Source of the DNA: Stegostoma tigrinum
Lineage: Eukaryota
Assembly (NCBI RefSeq): GCF_030684315.1
Contig: NC_081396.1
Span: 5,766,001-5,830,000, forward strand
Length of the DNA: 64,000 nucleotides
Direction: 5' to 3'
Positions 1 to 55,699 of this stretch are shown here, piece after piece. Below the pieces are notes generated by a model. That model searched no databases, had not been told where the DNA came from, and saw only the letters and a program-made list of their open reading frames with translations. The stretch's first letter is position 1; each line of letters opens with the position of its first letter. The position numbers and the translations under genes were made by a program.

Positions 1-587
1 GCTTGTTGTAGTGTAATTACAGAACAACAGGACATCATCACCCTCATTCACTGAAATTGCAGCCGCTGTTTGTGAGACAGAATCTCCACGACAAAGTCCT
101 GAAAGAATGGAGAGTTTCAGAAAATTGAATAACAGACTTCAACATTCTGTCGCTCAGAATCAGCCCATTAACCGTCATCACTAACATGAGAAATGAATCA
201 GGGAAGTTGAACTACAATCCGTTATGAGGAGGTCATTTCCTGAAACTTAAAGGGAAAGCTGAAAACAGTTGGTGGATTTTAAACTCTCCCCTCGGTTGAA
301 TCACCGTTTTGTCCTCCGTCCTGACTGAATGTCCAGCCTAACTCTTCCACTGTCATTCACTCAGGTACGTTTGCTGATTTCTCTCAAACTCTGCTCACTG
401 TTCGGACATGTTTATATCCATTTGGTTTTCATTTGGGGAGAATGTATTGCTGCTTCCATGTTGCCGATACTGCTTGAGCAAATGGAATTCATGGCAAAGA
501 GCTGAAGCATAGAAAGAGACAACTTTTCAACCTACCCATGAGAAGAGCTGCTACTGGGAGAAGCAAACGCAGAGCTCCAGGCGACAT
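1..587 (-). CDS. TCR alpha/delta-type V segment, copy A (leader exon 536-587; V exon 1-98, cut off by window edge)
   Basis: Leader MSPGALRLLLPVAALLM(G) with phase-1 GT donor; acceptor ...ctttcag at 99-100; exon reads LCRGDSVSQTAAAISVNEGDDVLLFCNYTTTS; 1-98 identical to 36494-36591. Confidence 0.9.
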
Positions 588-13858: not shown

Positions 13859-14335
13859 ATGTACATTCTCCTCGTTTTGATCTTATGTCTCTGTTTGCCC
13901 AGTAAGTACAGATCACGGGAAACTACATTGTGCATAATTGAAATTACCTTACTGCCCGAGCTCGTCCGAGTCGCAGACCGAGGCTGGGGTTTTAACCCAG
14001 TCATGAGGGTCTCTTCTAATTCTCACTCACCTCACTCTGTTTAATGTCTAGGTTATTTCAGTCAGTCGGTGACACAGAGCCCGGGAACAGTGACCAGGAA
14101 GGAGTGCCAGTCCGTCAGCATCTTCTGTGAGTTCAGTAGCACTTATTCAGGTGATCAATTTAGGCGTGGGCATTTCTTCAAAAAAACGCAGACGGCGAAG
14201 GATTGGGAGCGGATCACCAGCAGCGGGAGATTTGTTGTGTCCACGAATGAAGCACAAAAGACATTTTCCTTGGAAATTCGGGATATCAGAGTTGAAGACT
14301 CTGCCACCTATTACTGTAAGGCTCAGTTCTACAGG
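13859..14335 (+). CDS. NAR-TCR V segment (IgNAR-like V): leader exon 13859-13901, V exon 14052-14335
   Basis: MYILLVLILCLCLP(S)YFS-QSVTQSPGTVTRKECQSVSIFCEF...GHFFKKTQTAKDWERITSSGRFVVSTNEAQKTFSLEIRDIRVEDSATYYCKAQFYR; GTAAGT donor, AG acceptor, phase 1; NAR-type CDR2 deletion, F in place of the conserved W, extra FR1 Cys, YYCKA. Confidence 0.93.
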
Positions 14336-14373
14336 CACAGTGATGGCCCTCGGCTTCTCGTCGCATAAAATCT
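14336..14373 (+). other. RSS of NAR-TCR V (22-bp spacer)
   Basis: CACAGTG 14336-14342 + 22 nt + ATAAAATCT (6/9 consensus). Confidence 0.8.
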
Positions 14374-14708
14374 CTCACTGGAGATCACCTCAGAAACAAA
14401 TTGAAAACCAAGTGAATCTTCCGGAAATTCCCACAATTCTGTCTCCCAGTTTTTCCCTACAGTTCAACTTATACTGAGTTTGGACAATTGTCAACAGCAT
14501 CTTGAGTTTCACAGGTTCCAAGTACATTCAGATGGCGAAGTCTTTCCCTGGATTACTGCGCGTGATTGCAAATTCGGAAAGACTGACCACGTTCAGAGGA
14601 TGCTCACACGAGCCGGGATCTTGTTCTAACTGGAATCCAGAAATGTAGTCCAGATGTTTCAGTAATGTCCCCACATCAGTTCTTCGAACATTTAACACAG
14701 GCTTGGAA

Positions 14709-14759
14709 CATTGTGTAAGGCTGGGGGAATGCACAGTGAGAAGGGGCCGACGAAATTTC
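14709..14759 (+). other. NAR-TCR D segment (coding 14716-14731 TAAGGCTGGGGGAATG) with flanking heptamers
   Basis: CATTGTG (14709-14715) and CACAGTG (14732-14738) flank a G-rich 16-mer between V and J; 3' RSS has an 11-12 nt spacer and weak nonamer; 5' nonamer poor. Confidence 0.72.
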
Positions 14760-15070
14760 TCTGGATTGATAATGTAGAAATTCTCCAGCTCCTACCGTCA
14801 ATTGAGGGCCTGAACTTCGCTTTGTTGCAGTATGGGTTCATTTACTTTCATCTCCACCAACCAATATTGTTTTTTGTTAGATTCTCCTCTATTTGTGTGA
14901 AGTGAACATCTTCCGCCCGCACTCTGCATTATTTTCAGTAAGGTCAGAAAATGAGATTGAATCAAAGGAAACTTGGGCACGTCGAGTATTGGTTATTTCT
15001 GTAAATCACCAAAATATATGAACTGTTCAAACCGCGTAATGATGATTCCATTTCCCTTTGAGGTATTGTT

Positions 15071-15159
15071 TGTTCTTGTACAGGGGAGACTGTGAGGAGC
15101 ATCACTGTGATACGATGACTATGTAGATGGATCCGGGTCGGTGCTGATTGTCACAGCTG
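15071..15159 (+). CDS. NAR-TCR J segment (15110-15159) with 5' 23-RSS
   Basis: TGTTCTTGT (15071-15079) + 23 nt + CACTGTG (15103-15109); YDDYVDGSGSVLIVTA (NAR-type xGxG without F/W); phase-1 GTAAGT donor at 15160. Confidence 0.9.
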
Positions 15160-17916
15160 GTAAGTCAGTCCTCTCTTCACCATTCTATACTCTGTCGTGG
15201 TGAATGTTCAGTTTATTACCGTGACCTTTCATTGCATCGAAATTAAAGCAAACATTTTGCAAACAAAAAAATCATCTGCATTGCAGTGTCCGAATTGTTA
15301 GTTGAATACGAGAGCTGGGATCCGATTTGCTCAGGCGAAAGACTATGAAACCTGGTTACGAGTCGAAAATTTCACTGCATGTAGGGCATTATTAGTCCAA
15401 CAGTCAACAGTAACTTGTGACCGAAGGGACACAGCGTACCGCTCAGGTCAGAGGAGTTGCATCGTGGAGCACAAACGGGGCAGGAATTTAAGTCTGGGGT
15501 GTAAGGTCCAGAGTGGGAAAACATGATAAAAACATATGCCTCACGAAAGAATTGAAACAATCACCTAGCGAACATCCAACATTTGTGATCCAGCGATATG
15601 TCAAGATGAATGTTCAACATTGGGGAATTGTTGAGATGAATGATCGATATGGCATTTTTCTCAATGGTTCTTATATTTGTTTTCATATAACCAATCATGC
15701 TCCTAACATTCCAGACTTAGACGTGGATGTGAGCCCATTTTTATTTTAAGTACAGCTCGTTGAGATGTCACTTTGCTGTAATGTAGCTGCTGAAGGCAAG
15801 AAATGCAAACTGAAGAAATACTCATTCAGAACAAGAAAGTAAAAGCTCCCCAAAAAGAATTGATGACAATTTCTGGGCCATCAATCAAAGTATCACCCCT
15901 CACCAGTGTGTTTCGTGAGCCATATGGAGGAGAAGGCCTGGAATCGTGGGTAAAGGTTTGCTCGCCTTACTTGAGGCTGGAACGGTTTACTTTGGAGCAG
16001 GTGTGGAGAAGATTCATCATTCAGTCACTGAAGATGACATTGTTCTCCATTGTGGGGTGATTGTGAAGTTTGAGCTGCATTGCTCGGCGTTTAGAAGAAG
16101 GAAATGTGATCTCATTTAAATATTAACAATTGTTAAGTGAGAGATGCTCAGTGGAATTTAGCCGCGCTGAAAAGTAGACAAAGGGGTCACAGTTTGAGAC
16201 TGAGAGATCAGCAAATATAACTGAGAAGACATGATATAATTCAGTCGATCATTTGTCTTGATACTGTGGCATTCTGTAATTCAGAAAGTAGCAGAGGCCC
16301 AAAGCCTGACAAATTTCGATGGGTCGCTCTTTCCTCTGAGAACCAGGGAAGCAACACGAGACTTCCTGGAAATCTTAGTACCATGATCTAGCAAATGGGG
16401 TGAATGAGACTGAGCCAAGAGCATCGAAACATTAATATATCATGCTCAATGACAGAATAAACCAAGTCATGAACGTGGAGAAATATATAAAATGAGATGG
16501 TAGAATGTAAAACTTGTCTCATGAGAGATTGGAGAACATGCTATTGTGTCATTAATGGAGGGTTTTGAAAACGCAGGGAGGAGAACAGAATACACTTACA
16601 AAGCATGCTAGATGGGCAATGTAAATCAGATTTCAGACTGGGGCGGGCGCATCACTGGGGCCGATTGACCTGACTCGTGTCTTAATATTTAACGCAAAAT
16701 AAAAACAGAATAAACTCCAGTCAAAGTACCCAAAAGAGAATAAATCTGTTCAAATAATTGAAACTGAGGGAGATCTGGAGGGGAAATCCCATCAATAACA
16801 GAAAAACTTCTCAGCAAACAATACGGACTAAACACAGATGATGACTGAACGGTGTTGGCACGATTGAATGAAAGGAAAACGGGACAAAGGAAACCCAGAA
16901 ATAAAACGACACTAATCGAAAATGATGCACGTTGGTGGTAAACAGATAAGGAAGTGACCTGATTTGCAAATAAAATTTCATGTAGATCAAAACTCGGGTG
17001 GAATCTTCTGTGAAAAGTTAAACTCCAGGGAATAATTGAGTTAATCGCTGCGGAACAAACACGTGCATATCGGTGCAAACCAGTTGGATGACCTTTGGGC
17101 ATTTAATTGTGGAAATTGATTATACAGTGATAGCCATACAGCACGGAAATGTGAGCTTGCATCCAAGTGGTCCTTGTCAGCCAGGTGTCCGAAACTGAAG
17201 TAATATCATGCGTCTGCGTTTGGTCTGTATCCCTCGAAACATTTAGCATTCATTTACATGTTCCAAATATGCTTTCATTGCTTTAACTGCACCTGCCTCG
17301 AACACTAACTCTGGGAATTCATTTCATGTACGCGCCACTCTCTGTGTGCAAAAGCTGCCCCGTCAGGGCCGTTAAAAATCTTTTCCATTTCACCTTAAAC
17401 CTTCGCCCTCCAGCTTGGAAAGTAAATTTAAGAAGTTCCCTCGGACTTATCTGCCAACAGAATAAGTAGAATTTAAAAAGTCCCCTCGGGCTTATCTTTC
17501 GACAGAATAAGTAGAAGCAGAAGCGTAACATTCACCACAGAATCATTCCCGATGCCATTCAGCCCCCAACTGACTCCTATCCTCTTCTGATTGCTCCCAA
17601 GGTCCTGGTATACTCCCCATAGCCCTGCATTTTCTGACTGATTCTGCTGCTGTCGATTACCCATTTGAAACGTACAGCTGAATCAGTTTCTAACCCCAGT
17701 TTTGAAAACGTATTGCTCATCATTAGAATAAAATAAATCAAACAAAGGGTCGTCTGATCGCCTAATCAGCTTATTATTTCGATAAAAGGGAAATAGGTTC
17801 AAATGGGCTATCAAGTCATTGAAATGCCACAAAAAAAGAGAACAATCCCAGTGATGTCCAATTTCTCCAAGAAACAGAGGCTGAAGAAAGTAATGGTGTT
17901 CAATATCATTCCACAG

Positions 17917-18196
17917 ATTCCGACTACCTGCTCCCCAAGAGTCCGCCTCTGCAAACCCCTCTTGTTGGTGCCACTGTTACCATAAGCGCTGAATATTCAG
18001 GATTGTGTCAGTACTCAGTTTATTGGTACAGACAGTCTCCAGGAGAGGCTCCGAAATTCCTTCTCCAAACAGGCGCTTCTGTTGCTGAAGGAAGAATTTC
18101 TGCTTCCATTGATCCTGAGGCGAAAATCGCTCGGTTAGTTATCTCTCGAACACAGTTGAGTGATTCTGCTGTTTACTACTGTGCACGGAGACGGCG
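17917..18196 (+). CDS. Leaderless supporting TCR-delta V segment of NAR-TCR
   Basis: Acceptor ttccacag at 17909-17916, in phase with the J donor; (D)SDYLLPKSPPLQTPLVGATVTISAEYSGLCQYSVYWYRQSPGEAPKFLL...LSDSAVYYCARRR; CDR1 Cys; no leader exon seen. Confidence 0.88.
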
Positions 18197-18525
18197 CACA
18201 GTGATACACAGGACGGAGAGAGTTTCACAAGAACCTGAACACGGTGGGGATTACCAACACAGTGATACAGAGATCGGAGAGACCTGCACAAAAACCTGAA
18301 GATGGTGAAATTACAGACACACAGTGACACAGAGCACAGAGAGAGCTCTTCAAAAACCCGGACATGGTGGAGATTACAAACACAGCGATCCGGAGCAGGA
18401 AAAGAGATGAATCAGAACATGATCATAGTGCGATGACAGACATAGTGGTGCAGAGATAGCCGTCCAAAGGTCTGAACATAGTGAGGGTTACAGACGCAGA
18501 GCACGGACAGAGCGGCATAAAATCA
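18197..18525 (+). repeat. Tandem ~61-bp repeat, each unit carrying a 23-spacer RSS
   Basis: Heptamers at 18197, 18258, 18320 (CACAGTG), 18381 (CACAGCG), 18441 (CATAGTG); nonamers ACAAGAACC (18227), ACAAAAACC (18288), TCAAAAACC (18350), each after exactly 23 nt. Confidence 0.92.
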
Positions 18526-25549: not shown

Positions 25550-26450
25550 CTGTGAACTTGTTACCGCTTCTCATCCAACATGATGACGGTCCGGTCTCTC
25601 CCGTTGCATCACTTACCATCTGGTGGCGATCACAGAAAGTGATTTCCTTGTCATCACAAGCATCTTTGTCACCACAGTCATCGTCAACCGAATCAGCTGC
25701 AACATCACCCAGGAAAGTGTCTTGCCCACCACTCCTGCGTGCACTCTCGGCGGCTTGATGGTCTATTCCACCATTGATTCCGTTGTCTGGCTGACAGTCG
25801 CCCTTGCCATTGACTGTTTGATGGTCATCTGCCACCAGAAGCTGGAAGCCAGGCACTGCACCAAGAAAACTGCATCACTGATCACTGGACTGATCTGCAC
25901 CTTGAGCCATATCAAGAACATTCCTTTACTAGTTTGCATTTCAGTCATTTTTTTCATTTTGGACGAGGTTCCCTGGTTTTGCAGTTTCTACGACAATTTC
26001 TACACCTGGCCAGCTAGTCAGGCTTATGGTTGTTTCTTTCACATCATTACTCCTTTTCTCTCGTTTTTCCTCTTCCTGCTGCGCGACTTCGTGTCAAGGA
26101 GACCCATCCAGCAGCGAGCAGAACACTGAGGAGGCTCTGGGGCGCTGGAAAGAGATGACACGCAGGAATGGCCAACCACAAGAGATCCATTGCCCTGCTG
26201 TATGTCATCTCGCTAAACTTCCACATCCTGTGGTTTCTCCTTGTCAGACATTTTATTTACGTGTTATTTAAAGATAATTGTTACTTCAGTGGGGACAATT
26301 TCAGTGACCCTCACTAGATCCTCCAAGAGACACCCAAAATAATTTGTCGACTTCATTCCTGCAACAACGTCTTCAACTATGTGGTGTCTCAAGGGAAGCT
26401 GGAGAAAGTTCTGATGTATCCCGTCGCCACTCTCACCACTTTCTTGAAAT
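25550..26450 (+). pseudogene. GPR139-like GPCR pseudogene (paralog of 31390-32852)
   Basis: SDFLVIT, SVVWLTVALAIDC, ARHCTKKTAS, SCNNVFNY align with the intact paralog; frameshifts and stops. Confidence 0.85.
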
Positions 26451-27539
26451 GATGTGGGGTTGGAAAATCCCCTCAGATTGCTTTTTTCTTCCCAACACAC
26501 AGTGAGCCAGTGTTCACTTCTCCCATGTACTTATGATTCAGCAATCTTATTTTTTAAAATGCTCCAGTCGTAAAGGGGGAGAGAGCGCAATCTTCTGCTT
26601 TACTGATACTGAGGGAATGCAGATCTATTGGAAATGCTTGACTGCCAGATTAAAGGTGAGCTCGGGATTACAGTCCACCTTCCCTGTTTTGAATCCCCTC
26701 CTGTCTCATTCTGCTAGCATTTGTTGATTCATTTCTTTCCCTCCTGATTATTTTTTTCCTACTTTTTTCCCTCATCCATTCCCATTGTTTACTAATTCCA
26801 TTCCTTCCAGATTTGTTTCACTTTTGTCTCCATTCTTGACGTTCTTTCATTTGTCAGGGCTATCATTTCGATCCATCACACTCTCTATTTCACCAAGTCT
26901 TCGATGAAACATGCTGCAAAAGAAGACCTACTGTTTGAGTGACGTTTCTTTCATTACAGCTGTCCAACGTGAGGATCAAAGCAGGCAGGTAGATCGGGTA
27001 GCATCAATAGAAGGTGACCGGGTTGAACTGGACTGACAGCTCTCCCTTCGTACTCCAGACACAGTAGCCTGGTACAGACAAACACTGACAGGGGCTCTGA
27101 CATTGATCGGGTCCATGAACCAGGGCAATGAGTCAATAGACCGCCACACGCTGACCATTCACAGATCGAATACGTCCAACGTCATCTGTATAGATGGAAC
27201 CGCAATCTGGATGACACAATGATCTAATGTGCAAAGCAGGCACAGTGAGACAAAGTGTGAAACCCGTTGTGCTATAACTTGGCAGTGCTAGGTCTCTGCT
27301 GGCCCATTTCACATTTACCAGAAGGTAAGTATTACAAATAATAGGGATATTGCAAAATCTCGCTTTCTGTTCCTGAAGCATCCAACGGGATGATGCTACA
27401 AAACCTTGTTACCCCAGACAAAGTGTATGAAGTATCTTACATTTAAGATAAACTGATGGACACAAAGATGTCTTTACCTATAGCATGTCACGACAGAGGG
27501 ATATGCGACATAAGTAGTAGAAAGATTGAATTATAGAAG

Positions 27540-31389: not shown

Positions 31390-32852
31390 ATGCATGGCCC
31401 AGCAAATGGCCCGTTCTATGCCATTTACTATCCAACTCTGGCTGTTATTGGTGTCCCTGGTAAGTAACGGGTACCAAATTCCTTTTTTTAAGTACAACAA
31501 AATCTTTCTGTTCCATTTCAGGAATAGCTTTTTTCAATTTTCTGATATTCCCAGCTGAAAGGACCTCAGCCCAGATCACGATATACATATGGGGAATGTA
31601 AAGTTGTACTTAACATTTTTAAGATGCAGCAAGATCATATCCCACCTGTTACACTCAGATTTAATGTAACAATTGTTTATTACATTATTGATTTGTGGAT
31701 TGTAATGGATAGTATTGACTGAATGTGGATCAGATATGCTGCTGAAGATTAAATTTTGTTGCAATGCTGGAAGCTACAAGCTAACGTTTTTGGGGTTATA
31801 TGGAATAATCAGCTATCACTGTGTTCAAACGTTTCATGCATAGATTTCTTGAATACTTCGAAGAAAATTATTGCAGATCTGTAATTACACTAAAGCTTAA
31901 AACTATATGTAATGATTACTCAAACCAGCTCAATAATGGTTTGCAATTTCTCACAGCCAACTTGCTGGCCATCGTTGTACTGTTACGAGGACGGTGTGGA
32001 CTCTCTCGGTGTACTACCTATTATTTGATGGGGATAGCAGTGAGCGATTTTCTGGTTATCATCACTGGGTGCATCCTAAATCGGATTGGTGGCATTTATT
32101 TCCGGCACAGCGCCCTGTCCACAACAAACGCCTGTGCACTCAGCACTGTGATGATCTATGCCAGCCGAGATGGTTCAGTCTGGCTGACAGTGGCCTTCAC
32201 CATCGACCGCTTTGTCGCCATTTGCTGCCAGAGTCTCAAGGCCAGGTACTGCACCGAGAAAACGGCCTCATTGTTCATCGGAGTGGTTTGCGTCCTGAGC
32301 TGCGTCAAGAACCTGCCTTCCTACTTCGTCTACCAGCCCTTGTACGTTGTGGATGGCGTGTCCTGGTTCTGTGAATTCAGAGACGCATACTATAACTCAC
32401 CTGCATGGAAATCCTATGACTGGCTGAATCACATCTTGACGCCTGTTCTCCCATTTCTTCTTATTTTGCTGCTCAATGTCTTGACTGTCAAATACATCTT
32501 AGTGGCCAGCAGTGCTCGGAGGAGGCTCCGGAGCAGGGCGAGCCATGGAGACCCAGAGATGGCCAATCGCAAGCGGTCTATTGTACTGCTCTTCACCATC
32601 TCGCTGAGCTTCCTCCTTCTATGGGTCACCTATGTCGGGCGCTTCCTCTATGTGCGGGTTACTGGTGTAACCTACTTCAGTGGCTTGGATTTCACTCACC
32701 CGCAATTCATTCTCCAAGAGACCACCAACATGCTGCAGATACTCAGTTCGTGCAACAACATCTTCATTTATGCAGTATCCCAGAACAAATTCCGAGACGA
32801 GCTGAAGAAGGTTCTGGTGTCTCCCTTCACAACTCTCACCGGCTGCAAATAA
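31390..32852 (+). CDS. Class A orphan GPCR, GPR139/GPR142-like; exons 31390-31459 and 31957-32852 (321 aa)
   Basis: Exon 1 MHGPANGPFYAIYYPTLAVIGVP with GTAAGT donor; exon 2 ANLLAIVVL, SVWLTVAFTIDRFVAIC, 7 hydrophobic segments, NNIFIY; phases compatible. Confidence 0.9.
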
Positions 32853-36248: not shown

Positions 36249-36287
36249 AGTTTTTGTACAGGGTCAGCTCAGTTCTGAGTGACTGTG
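36249..36287 (-). other. 23-RSS of V copy B
   Basis: CACAGTC + 23 nt + ACAAAAACT on the minus strand. Confidence 0.9.
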
Positions 36288-37067
36288 GGGTTCAGTGCGC
36301 AGAAATACACTGCGGAGTCTGATAGTTCTGTTCTCAACACTCTCAGCTGGATAGTGCGGTTCACATGATCAAAATCCGAGGAAAGCCGGTCATTCAGTAA
36401 GCTCGCTCGATTCTCACTATATCGGTTTTTCTGCAGTAGAAAATGTGTGGAGCCGCTGGAATGTTGACGGTACCAGAACAGGTAAGGGTTGCTGCTTGTT
36501 GTAGTGTAATTACAGAACAACAGGACATCATCACCCTCATTCACTGAAATTGCAGCCGCTGTTTGTGAGACAGAATCTCCACGACAAAGTCCTGTAAGAG
36601 TGGAGAGAATAACAAGCTTCAACATTCTATCGCTCAGAATCAGTCTGTTACCCTTCATCAATAACATGAGAAATGAATCAGGGAAGTTGAACGACAATCC
36701 GTTATGAGGAGGTCATTTCCTGAAACTTAAAGGGAAAGCTGAAAACAGTTGGTGGATTTTAAACTCTCCCCTCGGTTGAATCACCTTTTTGTCCTCAGTC
36801 CTGACTGAATGTCCACCCTAACTCTTCCACTCTCATTCACTCAGGTACGTTTGCTGATTTCTCCCAAACTCTGCTCACTGTTGTTGCATGTTTATATCCA
36901 GTTGGGTTTTATTTGAGGAGAATGTATCGCGGCCTCCATGTTGCCCGAACTGCTGGAGGAAATGGAATTCACAGCAAAGCGCTGAAGCATAGAAAGAGAC
37001 AACATTTCAACCTACCCATGAGAAGAGCTGCTACTGTGAGAAGGAAACACAGAGCTCCAGGCGACAT
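36288..37067 (-). CDS. TCR alpha/delta-type V segment, copy B (leader 37016-37067; V exon 36288-36591), apparently functional
   Basis: MSPGALCFLLTVAALLMG-LCRG-DSVSQ...LFCNYTTTSSNPYLFWYRQ...LSDSAVYFCALNP; canonical C, W, C; GT/AG phase 1; 23-RSS. Confidence 0.93.
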
Positions 37068-40000: not shown

Positions 40001-40334
40001 ATTGTGATTTCACCTGATCTTTAAACTCCCTGCATCATGTTCGTTTTTTTTTTCACTTCCTTCCATTTCTTCTCCGACAATTTCTCACTATTCTATCCAC
40101 TGCAAGTATGATTGCTGTATCTCCTTTCGCTTTTCTCCGTCAATGTTCCTGCCTGGCAAAATATATTTTCTTCACCTCCACCCGCATATCCAACTGTCTT
40201 CCTGCCTGAACATCTTGCTGTTCCAAACTTTCTGTCGTATTTTAGTCTCATTTCCCTTATATTGGATTATTGGAGTCGAGAATTAGTAACACAGATACAT
40301 CAAAATCAGCACAGCAGAACCCGGACTCTGTGCA

Positions 40335-40684
40335 AGTTTTAGTATGGACTCTCCTGCTGTTTGTGACGCTGTGCCCTCGTTGGCACAGAGGTAGGTTGCG
40401 GTGTCATTAAGTCTGGCATCTTTCATAGCCAAGGTACTGAGTTTGTCATCTCTGCTGCTGGAAGCGGTAACCCTCTCACTCTGATCAACTGCTCTTGTGG
40501 CCATCATCAGATGCTGGGGTGGCAGGCCTGGAAGCTGCCAGTACCAAAACACGATGTTAAATGTACTGGCAATGGAGCAAGTCATGAACGTAATTCCCAA
40601 TTCGCAAACAACCACCCACGGTGGAACTTGCATCAGTTGCCTCAGAGTGAAAAACAGCAGGAGAACTCTGCAAATTCGGAACAT
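40335..40684 (-). CDS. TCR V segment with leader fused to V (no intron) plus 23-RSS; ORF or pseudogene
   Basis: MFRICRVLLLFFTLRQLMQVPPWVVVCELGITFMTCSIASTFNIVFWYWQLPG...DTATYLCANEG (40374-40684); CACAGCG (40367-40373) + 23 nt + ACTAAAACT (40335-40343). Confidence 0.82.
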
Positions 40685-41104
40685 TATCAGATTGCAAGTA
40701 CAGAGGTGTAAGTAATTGTCCACGAAGTTCTCTTGAGGACCGGGGATAAATATTGTCCGAGGAAACAGCTTGAATAATGCCTGCTTCACACCTCACTCAG
40801 AGCTGCCTTCTTGTTGAAGTTGCAGAGGTACGTGTATGAATTCATGAGAAAAGATATCATCTCCCTCAATGAGACGCGGAACAGGGAGAGCGAGGAAAGT
40901 AGAGATAACACAGTGTGGAGTAGGAGGGACTCAGGAGGCATCAGAGGAGCAGGAAAGTTGATGCTTCGGCTCAGAACCCTTCTGATTCTGACACAAAAAC
41001 TCAACTTACCTGCTCCTTTGATGCTGTCTGGCCTACTGTGTTGTCTCTGACTCCAGCATCAGCAGTTCTTACTAACTCCGAGCGGGTAAGTTAGCGGCTG
41101 ACAG

Positions 41105-45952: not shown

Positions 45953-46627
45953 TCATTTGTGAACTCCCTGGTGTCTCTGTAGGCTGGACAATCGAGTGAA
46001 TTCCTTCCCACACTGCAAGCAGCTGAACGGCCTCGCCCCAGTGTGAATCCGTTGGTGTAGCAGCAGGTTGGATGACTGAGTGAACTCCTTCCCACACTCG
46101 GAGCAGGTGAACGGCCTCTCCCCCGTGTGAACTCGCTGGTGTGTTTGCAGGTTGAACAACCGAGTGAATCGCTTCCCGCACTTAGAACAAACGAACGGCC
46201 TCTCCCCGGTGTGAATCCGCTGATGAGTGAGCAGGGTGGACGACTGAGTAAATCCTTTCCCGCACTCACAGCAAGTGAACGGCCGCTCCCCGGTGTGAAC
46301 CCGCTTGTGTCTCAGCAGGCTGGTTGAATCGGCGAATCCCTTCCCACAGTCAGAGCAAGGGAATGGCCTGTCCTGGGTGTGAACTCGCTGGTGCGTCAGC
46401 AGGGTGGATATATCGGTGAATCCCTTCCCACACTCGGAGCAGGTGAATGGCCTCTCCACAGCATGGACTTGCCGGTGTCTCAGCAGATTGGAGAGAGCGC
46501 TGAATCCTTTCTCGCACACCGAGCAGGTGAATGGCCTCTCCCCCGTGTGACTGCGCTGATGAATCTCAACTGCAGATGGAGAACAGAAGCCCTTCCCACA
46601 GTCCCCACATTTCCAGGATTTATTCAT
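45953..46627 (-). CDS. C2H2 zinc-finger protein (8 fingers, 224 aa ORF)
   Basis: Eight CxxC..H...H units with TGERPF linkers; candidate upstream acceptor ttttacag at ~46983. Confidence 0.9.
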   Translation of the reverse strand: MNKSWKCGDCGKGFCSPSAVEIHQRSHTGERPFTCSVCEKGFSALSNLLRHRQVHAVERPFTCSECGKGFTDISTLLTHQRVHTQDRPFPCSDCGKGFADSTSLLRHKRVHTGERPFTCCECGKGFTQSSTLLTHQRIHTGERPFVCSKCGKRFTRLFNLQTHQRVHTGERPFTCSECGKEFTQSSNLLLHQRIHTGARPFSCLQCGKEFTRLSSLQRHQGVHK

Positions 46628-47449
46628 GCTGACAGCGTTCTCATTGTCTCTCCGGGTTTACCAGTCAGTTCAAAACTTGCCCACACCCAGAACGTGCATC
46701 TGGTTTCCCTCTGCTGTAAATTGCACAATATTTTTCCAGGCTGTTCAACTAGTTCAAGGTTTTCACTGGCACTGAAACATTCTTACTCAGGTCTGAGTGT
46801 CACCATCCTTTTCCATTCACACCGACTTTTAAAACCTCGATGCAGACTGAACAGTGGATCACTTCTTCTTTCACAGCTTAAAGCCTACATCGTTCAGATC
46901 CCGAGGAATCGTGCGATTCTGTCAGATCTTGTCGTGATGTTAGTTTCAGATTCCTTCCGACAAATCGTCCCCTTCAAACATCCTGTAAAAGCAGGTTTAA
47001 AACGTCATCACTGTCTGTGCAAGATAAAAAAAAATGAAATCTTCTAAAGTTGATATTTCATGCTTACTGACAAGATTTCTGCTCACTGTTGGTACAGACT
47101 CGATGGGCTGAGGTGCCTCTTCTGGACTATATCATTCTATGCTTGTGTACTGTCTGGCCGAAAGTACCAAACAGGTTCTTTAGGGCCTGATCAAAATGAT
47201 TATTGGAAGCCACATACACTTCACTATGTAACTAATTTATTGAGTTAAAATATTGAATCCATGCAAGAATTAGTGTTGCTGGTTTATATTACTGATATAC
47301 CCCAATGAGGAAAAGTCTGATAATGCTTAAGCTCAATGCTATAGCTTGTTCGCTGAGAAATACATGCCGATTACTGGACTAAAAATGTACAATTTACAGA
47401 ACTGTACCACTTGATTAAAGACCTGGGGGGAGGGGGGTTGTCAGGAAGA

Positions 47450-54199: not shown

Positions 54200-54961
54200 T
54201 CAGGAGGTGGGTGACTGAGCGATGTCCCCCCCCACAAACAGAGCAGCCGAACGCATCCTGCCCATGTGAGCTCGCTGGTGACTCAGAACGTCGGATGAAC
54301 GGCGAAACCGCTTCCCACACTTGGAGCAGCTGAAGGGCCTCTCTCCGGTGTGGCGTCGCTGGTGTGCCAGCAGGTTGGACGTGTGAGTGAATCCCTTCCC
54401 ACAGTCTGAGCAGATGAAGGGCTTCTCCCCAGTGTGACTACGTTGGTGTGTCAGCAGGTCCCTTGTGCTTTTAAAGCTGGAGTCACAGTCAGAACATTGA
54501 AAGGGTCTCTTATCGGTGTGAATAAGCTGATGTGATGTCAGATTAGTTAAACAAGTGAATCCCTTCCCACACACAGGACAGGTGAACGGCCTGTCCCCTG
54601 TATGAATACGGAGATGCTCAGTGAGGTTGGATGATCGTCCGAATCTCTTCCCACAGTGAGAGCAAATGAACGGCCTCTCTCCGGTGTGAACCCGCTGGTG
54701 CTCAGTGAGGGTGGATGACTTGGCGAATCCCTTGCCACACACAGAGCAGGTGAACGGTTTATCCCCAGTATGAACTCGCTGATGTGACAGCAGAGTGGAT
54801 AGCTGAGTGAACCCCTTCCCACAGTCAGAGCAGGTGAATGGTCTCTCTCCAGTGTGACTACGTCGGTGGGCTTCCAGCTTGGATGGGTAACTGAATCCCT
54901 TCCCACAGTCCCCACATTTCCATGGTTTCTCTATAGCGCTTACGTCCTTTTGTCGGTCCAT
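54200..54961 (-). CDS. C2H2 zinc-finger protein (8 intact fingers, 253 aa ORF; decayed fingers continue to ~54020)
   Basis: Tandem CxxCGKGF...H...H with TGE(R/K)PF linkers. Confidence 0.9.
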   Translation of the reverse strand: MDRQKDVSAIEKPWKCGDCGKGFSYPSKLEAHRRSHTGERPFTCSDCGKGFTQLSTLLSHQRVHTGDKPFTCSVCGKGFAKSSTLTEHQRVHTGERPFICSHCGKRFGRSSNLTEHLRIHTGDRPFTCPVCGKGFTCLTNLTSHQLIHTDKRPFQCSDCDSSFKSTRDLLTHQRSHTGEKPFICSDCGKGFTHTSNLLAHQRRHTGERPFSCSKCGKRFRRSSDVLSHQRAHMGRMRSAALFVGGDIAQSPTS

Positions 54962-55699
54962 GTTAGATAATCGAACTGAAGACTTATCTACACTGCAGTT
55001 TTACCACAGTGTAAATGCTGTGATGATTTTCTTAGGCCACGCAACATTAAAGTTCTGCTCACAGTCAGTGCACCAGAACACCCTCCTTTGGGTGTGAGTG
55101 TCGTGGTGATTTCCCAGCTATGCTATTGTCTAAGATCTTTTCTCTAAGAGGGTCCAGGTAATTATTTCCGCTTCCACAAAGTTCAAGATTATTCAGATGA
55201 ATCAAGAGACTCTGTCAGATGATGGTGACGAGAATTTCAATTTGAATTTTCTGTGTATAAATTATTTATTTTCAATACCCAATAGGAAGGATTTCCAAAA
55301 ATCGTCGTCCAGGATAATAATGCTTAAATATTTCAGTCTAGAGGCAGTATTTTTCCTCACTTGTTCGCAAACAGCTGCAAATTGGTCCAAAAACACTCCT
55401 CCTTGAACATTTGCTCACGTTTGTCTTTGCTGCATGTAAATCCACGCAAGTGAACCAGCCCTTTGCCCCCTATAAAGATGGCTACCTCACGGACGTGTGC
55501 TTGAACGGCGCCCCGAATAAAGATGACGGCGCTCAATCCAGGCCTAGCCCCGCTGAAAACTCGCAGCCGATTCACCGCACGGGGACCGAATACGGGACAG
55601 TGAGCTTCTAATTCGCATCTAGAGACCTGCATCAAACGTTTACGAAACCTGCCAGACTGCGCTCCAGCTCCACTCTCTCCTGAACTCGCCGTTATCTCG

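What the first reader, a model, noticed from the sequence alone, without database searches (positions are those of the whole stretch)
13859..18235. Complete germline NAR-TCR cassette (doubly rearranging receptor)
Seen: L, V(NAR)-22RSS, D, 23RSS-J with a phase-1 donor that splices in frame (g+at = Asp) onto a leaderless TCR-delta V with a 23-RSS. Both domains carry extra cysteines: FR1 RKECQ and CDR1 GLCQY. Established: NAR-TCR of cartilaginous fish has a NAR V domain on a supporting V-delta, with a proposed inter-domain disulfide between such cysteines. The cassette uses IgH-like RSS logic (long spacer on both V and J) inside a TCR locus. The ORF track misses the D, the J and the splice.
Basis: partly seen in the sequence, partly recalled or inferred. 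Interest (0 to 1): 0.7.

Follow-up and report, generated by a model that had tools for sequence, protein, structure and literature searches.

The report
Shark NAR-TCR cassette missing core disulfide
This is an intact shark gene cassette for a long-known two-tier T-cell receptor; its lower domain has lost a cysteine that antibody-type domains normally keep, as several other sharks' copies have, but keeps the cysteine predicted to tie it to the upper domain, so it likely still works, though no RNA was available to show it.

Summary
The anatomy is real. Leader, NAR V with a 22-spacer RSS, D, 23-RSS J, a phase-1 splice and a leaderless supporting V-delta are all at the stated places. It is one of 8 such cassettes on G000:C55. 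NAR-TCR has been known since 2006, and this scan already noted sister cassettes on other DNA (e1-9924799, e1-9816335).

One correction: the supporting V has no extra cysteine. Its canonical Cys23 is Ala, and it has an in-frame 7-residue CDR2 deletion that none of 51 homologs has. Across homolog gene models Cys23 is lost in 11 of 51 supporting Vs (all 6 catshark ones, 3 of which also lose Cys104). The CDR1 cysteine is kept in 49 of 51, and NAR V keeps Cys23 in 50 of 50.

The only C-delta lies 4.8 Mb away on the opposite strand, so the second rearrangement would be a large inversion. Frames, splice sites and heptamers are intact despite long divergence, but the D signals are weak and no RNA run was listed. 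Likely a working variant (0.6) rather than a decaying copy (0.33).

The parts
13859..13901 (+). Leader exon (14 codons + 1 nt), GT donor at 13902
14052..14335 (+). NAR-type V exon; FR1 (a-b loop) Cys 14105-14107, canonical Cys 14126-14128 and 14315-14317, Phe in place of Trp41 at 14174-14176
   Evidence: best single-domain PDB matches are VNARs (7spp_C, E 2.5e-16)
14336..14373 (+). NAR V RSS: CACAGTG, 22-bp spacer, ATAAAATCT (3 mismatches to consensus)
   Evidence: score 16.7 at spacer 22, 2.8 at spacer 23
14688..14715 (-). D 5' RSS: heptamer CACAATG, 12-bp spacer, weak nonamer
   Evidence: score 2.1; second weakest of 8 paralogs, below all 26 J RSS used for training
14716..14731 (+). NAR D segment, 16 nt, two of three frames open
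14732..14759 (+). D 3' RSS: CACAGTG with an 11- or 12-bp spacer and a weak nonamer
   Evidence: 13.9 at spacer 11, 4.6 at spacer 12
15071..15109 (-). NAR J 23-RSS
   Evidence: score 21.6
15110..15159 (+). NAR J segment (YDDYVDGSGSVLIVTA), phase-1 GT donor at 15160
17917..18196 (+). Leaderless supporting V-delta exon; Cys23 replaced by Ala (17988-17990), CDR1 Cys 18006-18008, 21-nt in-frame deletion between 18079 and 18080, Cys104 at 18180-18182
18197..18235 (+). Supporting V 23-RSS
   Evidence: score 22.8
18258..18419 (+).

Best explanation
This is a germline NAR-TCR cassette (leader, NAR V, D, J, leaderless supporting V-delta) whose supporting V lacks canonical Cys23 and seven CDR2 residues, and it likely still encodes a three-domain TCR delta chain in which the retained FR1 and CDR1 cysteines would form the inter-domain disulfide. 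Step 1 (inferred from the signals): RAG joins NAR V (22) to D (12/12) to J (23) by deletion, as in an IgH cluster. Step 2 (inferred): the supporting V's 23-RSS joins the 12-RSS of D-delta. D-delta, J-delta and the single C-delta are on the opposite strand 4.82 Mb away (shown), so this would be an inversion that carries the whole cassette with it and flips the intervening Ig constant exons. Step 3 (inferred from phase-matched splice sites): L-VDJ splices onto supporting V-D-J and C-delta. Step 4 (inferred): NAR V binds antigen as an unpaired single domain. The supporting V is a pedestal that can lose its own Cys23-Cys104 bond and part of CDR2, with the disulfide to NAR V likely helping to hold it. 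Identity as a NAR-TCR cassette is about 0.97; the confidence given is for the whole statement, function included.
For: All frames, 4 splice sites and 5 heptamers are intact. The branch to this copy has dS about 0.19 (NAR V) and 0.27 (supporting V). Under neutral point mutation, 0 of 3000 simulations kept all of these intact at d = 0.2, 0.6% at d = 0.1 and 5.7% at d = 0.05, so the copy was constrained for most of its history. Cys23 to Ala needs two base changes in one codon (TGT in 7 paralog positions read as TGT or TGC, GCT here), and the deletion is in frame. Homolog models: supporting V Cys23 lost in 11 of 51 (8 Trp, 3 Tyr), CDR1 Cys kept in 49 of 51. All 6 Scyliorhinus domains have Trp23, and 3 of them also have Ala104, which leaves the CDR1 Cys as the only cysteine. 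In the same protein set NAR V keeps Cys23 and Cys104 in 50 of 50 and FR1 Cys in 49 of 50. The tree needs 4 changes of the Cys23 state (bootstrap 4-5; starred branches force at least 2). Precedent: salmonid TRAV1 lacks Cys23 and TRAV3 lacks CDR2, both are expressed, and 13 of 14 inverted functional TRAVs are expressed (PMC8559430). V genes nearest D-delta have the same inverted orientation.
Against: No transcript was seen. The supporting V is a long branch (0.45 against a median of 0.082). Its dN is 0.178 against 0.064 for the sister branch, and omega is 0.67 with interval 0.33-1.55, which does not exclude neutrality. It deviates at 6 of 39 highly conserved columns (median 2), including two new prolines near the N-terminus, and none of 51 homologs shares the deletion. 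No close ortholog turned up (best about 63% identity). The D nonamers are among the weakest of 8 paralogs. Decay within the last 0.02 substitutions per site would leave it intact 32% of the time. The homologs are gene models and may include pseudogenes; Trp and Tyr are single-base changes from Cys. A second, unnamed set had 0 of 8 losses. All 8 models that run on to C-delta keep Cys23. The two cysteines do not co-vary: the 2 models without the CDR1 Cys keep the FR1 Cys, and the 1 without the FR1 Cys keeps the CDR1 Cys.
Confidence: 0.6

Rival explanations
1. The cassette is a recently disabled copy: segments are still open, but the supporting V no longer folds or the D no longer recombines, so it adds nothing to the repertoire.
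For: Cys23 loss, a unique 7-residue deletion, two new prolines, dN 2.8 times the sister branch, omega not distinguishable from 1. Weak D nonamers. It is the most distal of the 8 paired cassettes found, 4.82 Mb from D-delta. Dead and orphan cassette pieces are common on this contig (L029, L034-L037). By the IMGT rule quoted in PMC8559430 it would be classed ORF, not functional.
Against: Neutral decay over most of the branch would have broken it. The two-base change to Ala and the in-frame deletion are unlikely to fall within a very short recent window. The V, J and supporting V RSS score 16.7 to 22.8. A whole catshark clade lacks Cys23 with open frames.
Confidence: 0.33
2. The supporting V's CDR1 cysteine has taken over as partner of Cys104 inside the domain, so there is no inter-domain bond in this copy.
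For: The domain has exactly two cysteines, and the CDR1 Cys is only six residues from position 23.
Against: From general Ig-fold knowledge (recalled), CDR1 is a surface loop and Cys104 is buried. In 3 catshark models both canonical cysteines are gone and the CDR1 Cys stays, so it does not need Cys104. NAR V here keeps its FR1 Cys, which would be left unpaired.
Confidence: 0.05
3. The NAR V is used without this supporting V, for example by joining its 22-RSS directly to D-delta or to a 12-RSS J, giving a two-domain chain.
For: The 12/23 rule allows it, and IgM/IgW V to D-delta trans-rearrangements are reported in sharks (PMC12227049, PMC5931798, passages).
Against: Its own D and J lie 373 and about 770 bp away and are conserved in 8 of 8 cassettes. 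No evidence for such chains was seen.
Confidence: 0.04

Closest known systems
NAR-TCR, the doubly rearranging TCR delta chain of cartilaginous fish (Criscitiello 2006, not held; seen as described in PMC1845163, PMC5931798, PMC12227049, PMC6795676)
   Same: Leader plus NAR V with a-b loop Cys and no canonical Trp; own D and J; leaderless V-delta with CDR1 Cys; linked to TCR delta D-J-C; cassettes scattered among IgH clusters megabases from the TCR constant region, as in great white shark (PMC12227049 Table S1).
   Different: The supporting V lacks Cys23 (Ala) and 7 CDR2 residues; the D nonamers are weak; expression has not been shown.
Salmonid and other teleost TRAV1 (no Cys23) and TRAV3 (no CDR2), PMC8559430
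   Same: TCR alpha/delta V domains without the first conserved cysteine or without CDR2, reported as expressed. 19 of 291 other V domains in my control set have Tyr23 and look like this type (unnamed, assigned by resemblance).
   Different: Those are ordinary leader-bearing N-terminal V domains. Here the domain is internal, under a NAR V, has a spare CDR1 Cys, and the substitute is Ala.
IgNAR / IgH minicluster
   Same: VNAR-like V; long spacer on V and J with 12-spacer signals on D.
   Different: One D; J splices to a TCR V and not to constant exons; no C1-set exon scored between 4.87 and 8.06 Mb of the contig (lower bound).
TCR mu of marsupials and monotremes (PMC3457774, PMC7615758, passages)
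   Same: Three extracellular domains with an unpaired N-terminal V on a supporting V.
   Different: Uses VH-like domains and its own locus and C region; described as convergent.

Membership tests
NAR-TCR cassette | N-terminal V related to IgNAR V, with a typical leader | tested here: met
   best single-domain PDB matches are VNARs; spliced leader present
NAR-TCR cassette | Cys in the a-b loop of NAR V (PMC1845163) | tested here: met
   RKECQ, 14105-14107; 49 of 50 homolog domains
NAR-TCR cassette | No Trp in the WYRK motif of NAR V (PMC1845163) | tested here: met
   GHFFKK; Phe in 50 of 50 homolog domains
NAR-TCR cassette | Own D and J segments with RSS between the two V exons | tested here: met
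   D nonamers weak
NAR-TCR cassette | Supporting V-delta without a leader | tested here: met
NAR-TCR cassette | Cys in CDR1 of the supporting V | tested here: met
   GLCQY, 18006-18008
NAR-TCR cassette | Linked to TCR delta D-J-C with compatible signals | tested here: met
   same contig; D-delta (12/23) at C55:961073, J-delta (12), single C-delta at 947147-947407, all minus strand
NAR-TCR cassette | Doubly rearranged transcript spliced to C-delta | not testable with these tools
   no RNA holder listed
NAR-TCR cassette | Inter-domain disulfide (putative in PMC1845163) | not testable with these tools
   structure jobs return no coordinates; conservation only
IMGT-functional V gene (canonical Ig V domain), supporting V | Cys23, Trp41 and Cys104 all present (rule as quoted in PMC8559430) | tested here: not met
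   Ala23; Trp41 and Cys104 present. Not filed as an IMGT-functional V.
IgNAR / IgH cluster | Own constant exons downstream of J | tested here: not met
   a TCR V follows J; no C1-set match near the window among 150 scored of 318 candidates

The most novel reading that the evidence does not exclude
In NAR-TCR the inter-domain cysteine is under stronger constraint than the immunoglobulin fold's own disulfide: supporting V domains have repeatedly dropped Cys23 (Ala here, Trp in catsharks and epaulette shark, Tyr in horn shark and smoothhound) and in catsharks Cys104 as well, leaving expressed receptors whose pedestal domain is held only by a disulfide to the NAR V above it. This copy, reached by a 4.8-Mb inversion across the Ig clusters, is one of them.
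Probability: 0.4. Interest if true: 0.6.

Novelty: new variant of a known kind. Interest (0 to 1): 0.38.

Why it matters
The receptor type is known, so the cassette alone adds little. The cysteine pattern adds a handle on an old proposal. The NAR V-to-supporting V disulfide is called putative in the paper I could read, and catshark supporting Vs whose only cysteine is the CDR1 one give a clean natural test of it. If these domains are expressed, they are natural disulfide-free Ig V domains stabilised from a neighbouring domain, which bears on TCR evolution and on building tandem single-domain binders. Use of this cassette would also imply V(D)J inversion over about 4.8 Mb across antibody clusters in T cells.

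Tried and rejected
Expression: no RNA holder listed. The four runs found are DNA-like contigs of one study; they were laid only to check the letters.

Structure: the two-domain fold of a great white shark model (pLDDT 62) and the fold of this supporting V (pLDDT 62) gave V-like strands but low confidence and no coordinates, so neither is used as evidence. No complex prediction was obtained.

Ortholog search: none with Ala23 or the deletion. These searches see annotated proteins only, so this is weak.

Rejected readings: a separate leader for the 17917 V. An assembly error behind the Ala codon or the deletion (the runs may be the assembly's source). A second C-delta near the window (one match each; no match in 70 kb downstream). 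The 11-spacer RSS-like hits at 27060 and 32106, which lie inside a dead V and a GPCR frame and were taken as chance.

Fisher tests (11/51 vs 0/50, p = 0.0005; 11/51 vs 2/51, p = 0.015) treat related sequences as independent, and 3 of the 51 are this species' own paralogs, so I give them little weight. P0050 had no supporting V domain and is not in the 51. L029 was left out of the NAR V rate analysis because it has stops.

Literature: searches for NARTCR, NAR-TCR, shark + TCR delta + canonical cysteine, and doubly rearranging + supporting V showed no report of Cys23 loss in supporting Vs in the passages read. Criscitiello 2006, Deiss 2019, Ott 2021 and a 2024 Immunol Rev paper are not held, and their figures and supplements may already show it, as they may show the RSS spacers.
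Full report
1. Observation. The sequence shows a leader exon at 13859-13901, a V exon at 14052-14335 with CACAGTG-22-ATAAAATCT, a 16-nt D at 14716-14731, a J at 15110-15159 behind a 23-RSS, and a second V at 17917-18196 with a 23-RSS ending at 18235. The J donor is phase 1 and the acceptor gives G+AT = Asp, so J and the second V read in frame. The first V matches VNAR structures best among single domains, and both Vs are V-set domains. No credible leader exists for the second V: 7 open ATG..GT phase-1 candidates lie in the intron, none with hydropathy above 1.5, against 3.86 for the real leader. Four DNA runs of one study carry the same letters, apart from one intronic C>T in two of them; they may be the assembly's source.

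2. Correction. The second V does not have an extra cysteine. Aligned to PDB V domains and to paralogs, its canonical Cys23 is Ala (VTISAEY; GCT against TGT or TGC in 7 paralogs), so it has only the CDR1 Cys and Cys104. It also lacks 21 nt in the CDR2 region, a gap seen in 0 of 51 homolog domains.

3. Genomic setting. The window is G000:C55:5766001-5830000. Searches with the two V domains give 8 paired cassettes on C55, all on the plus strand: one at 2.04 Mb and seven at 5.39-5.78 Mb. This one is the most distal. All 8 have the same order, V-to-D distances of 373-383 bp, 12-spacer D signals and 23-spacer J signals; 7 of 8 have a clear 22-spacer V signal. One C-delta was found, at 947147-947407 on the minus strand, with J-delta (12-RSS) at 950-961 kb, D-delta (12/23) at 961073 and J-alpha below 916 kb. 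The two V genes nearest D-delta are on the plus strand, like the cassette. The supporting V would therefore join D-delta by inversion over 4,823,123 bp. Cassettes scattered among IgM clusters megabases from the TCR constant region are already tabulated for great white shark (PMC12227049 Table S1, part 1 of 2 read). Three database models labelled Stegostoma tigrinum match paralogs L031, L025 and L027 in the supporting V, so the genome is likely zebra shark.

4. Family pattern. Two searches returned 52 proteins, by their names all gene models from shark and sawfish genomes; 51 hold a supporting V and 50 NAR V domains were extracted. In 50 of 51 the NAR J directly precedes the supporting V (the regex counted 49 and I added P0044 by eye). 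Cys23 is missing in 11 of 51 (8 Trp, 3 Tyr), Cys104 in 4 of 51, the CDR1 Cys in 2 of 51. All 6 Scyliorhinus domains, from two species, have Trp23, and 3 also have Ala104. NAR V keeps Cys23 and Cys104 in 50 of 50 and the FR1 Cys in 49 of 50. A tree built with the cysteine columns blanked needs 4 changes for the 12 Cys23-less rows (bootstrap 4-5, at least 2 forced by well-supported branches; few columns). Against this, 8 further supporting-type domains from the unnamed library all keep Cys23, and 22 of 291 other V domains also lack it, 19 with Tyr. Cys23 loss in fish TCR V domains is known: salmonid TRAV1 has Tyr23, TRAV3 has no CDR2, and both are reported expressed (PMC8559430, passages and section 16).

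5. Working or decaying. The supporting V is a long branch (0.45; median 0.082). From pairwise distances among paralogs, its branch has dS 0.265 and dN 0.178 (sister 0.092 and 0.064), omega 0.67 (0.33-1.55). NAR V has dS 0.19 and dN 0.121 and is not clearly faster than its sister. Non-coding divergence from the sister cassette is 0.25-0.31. Neutral simulation leaves frames, splice sites and heptamers intact in 0 of 3000 runs at d = 0.2, 0.6% at 0.1, 5.7% at 0.05 and 32% at 0.02, so only recent decay is compatible. With a matrix trained on 26 J signals of this locus, the V, J and supporting V signals score 16.7, 21.6 and 22.8. The D signals score 2.1 and 4.6 at spacer 12 (13.9 at spacer 11 for the 3' one), against a training median of 21 and a background 95th percentile of 2.9. 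The supporting V deviates at 6 of 39 conserved columns, with two new prolines. Expression could not be tested here.

6. Mechanism. Shown: segments, signals, splice phases, cysteine positions, position and strand of D-J-C delta. Inferred: two independent rearrangements (a local deletion and a long inversion), splicing to a three-domain delta chain, antigen binding by the unpaired NAR V, and an FR1-CDR1 disulfide. That the a-b loop lies at the base of NAR V and CDR1 at the top of the supporting V is recalled Ig-fold knowledge, not a call result. The catshark domains whose only cysteine is the CDR1 one argue that its partner is outside the domain. No co-variation between the two cysteines was seen.

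7. Comparison and novelty. It meets the NAR-TCR features listed in PMC1845163 (passages) and is filed as a NAR-TCR cassette, but its supporting V fails the IMGT Cys23 criterion. Other papers seen: PMC12227049 (passages, section 6, Table S1 part 1), PMC6795676, PMC3457774, PMC3149040, PMC5931798 and PMC7615758 (passages), PMC3964593 (supplement search, no hit). Criscitiello 2006, Deiss 2019 and Ott 2021 were not seen. I found no mention of Cys23 loss in supporting Vs in the passages read from searches, but the primary papers may contain it. Earlier notes of this scan cover sister cassettes, the RSS ladder and the IgM array.

8. Verdict. Observation partly confirmed, interpretation supported. 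A known receptor type; this copy is a variant without the canonical disulfide in its supporting domain, part of a recurring pattern in sharks. Likely functional 0.6, decaying 0.33. Interest 0.38.

Noticed in passing
window 18258-18419: Three spare 23-RSS copies follow the supporting V at 61-62 bp period; the one at 18258 is a perfect consensus and outscores the real one (26.5 vs 22.8). Cutting there would add 61 nt containing a stop in the V frame.
   Followed up: partly
L031 (G000:C55:5734600-5741800): The neighbouring cassette shows the mirror defect: its supporting V keeps Cys23 but lacks the CDR1 Cys (GFDQY), while its NAR V keeps the FR1 Cys; its D 5' RSS is the weakest of the 8.
   Followed up: partly
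L029, L033-L037: L029 has two stops in NAR V but an open supporting V; L033-L035 are orphan or decayed supporting Vs (L034 has Tyr23 and no Cys104); L036-L037 are decayed NAR Vs.
   Followed up: partly
L038 (G000:C55:2929500-2936000): IgNAR-like V and J just upstream of C1-set exons at 2.94 Mb; two heptamers 11 bp apart share one nonamer, so the signal reads as both 12 and 23.
   Followed up: no
window 36269-36712 (minus) and window 1-400: An open TCR alpha/delta-type V with a 23-RSS at 36287 and a possible leader in the same frame; a near-identical copy straddles the start of the window, with a frame difference in the leader region.
   Followed up: partly
window 40283-40792 (minus); 26950-27290 (plus): A divergent open V with a 23-RSS at 40373, and a V pseudogene with stops near 27070.
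   Followed up: partly
window 31809-32852 and 25587-26129: A single-exon rhodopsin-family GPCR frame (7tm_1, E 1e-20) and a shorter similar frame among the V segments.
   Followed up: partly
window 45953-46657 and 54200-55000 (minus): Two C2H2 zinc-finger frames, recognised by motif only.
   Followed up: no
P0005, P0019: Gene models from great white and horn shark have two NAR V-J units before one supporting V; PMC12227049 Table S1 lists a great white 'NARTCR V(gj)V(gi)V' model.
   Followed up: no
window 15439: Intronic C>T in runs X3 and X4 but not X2 of the same sample, likely a heterozygous site.
   Followed up: no
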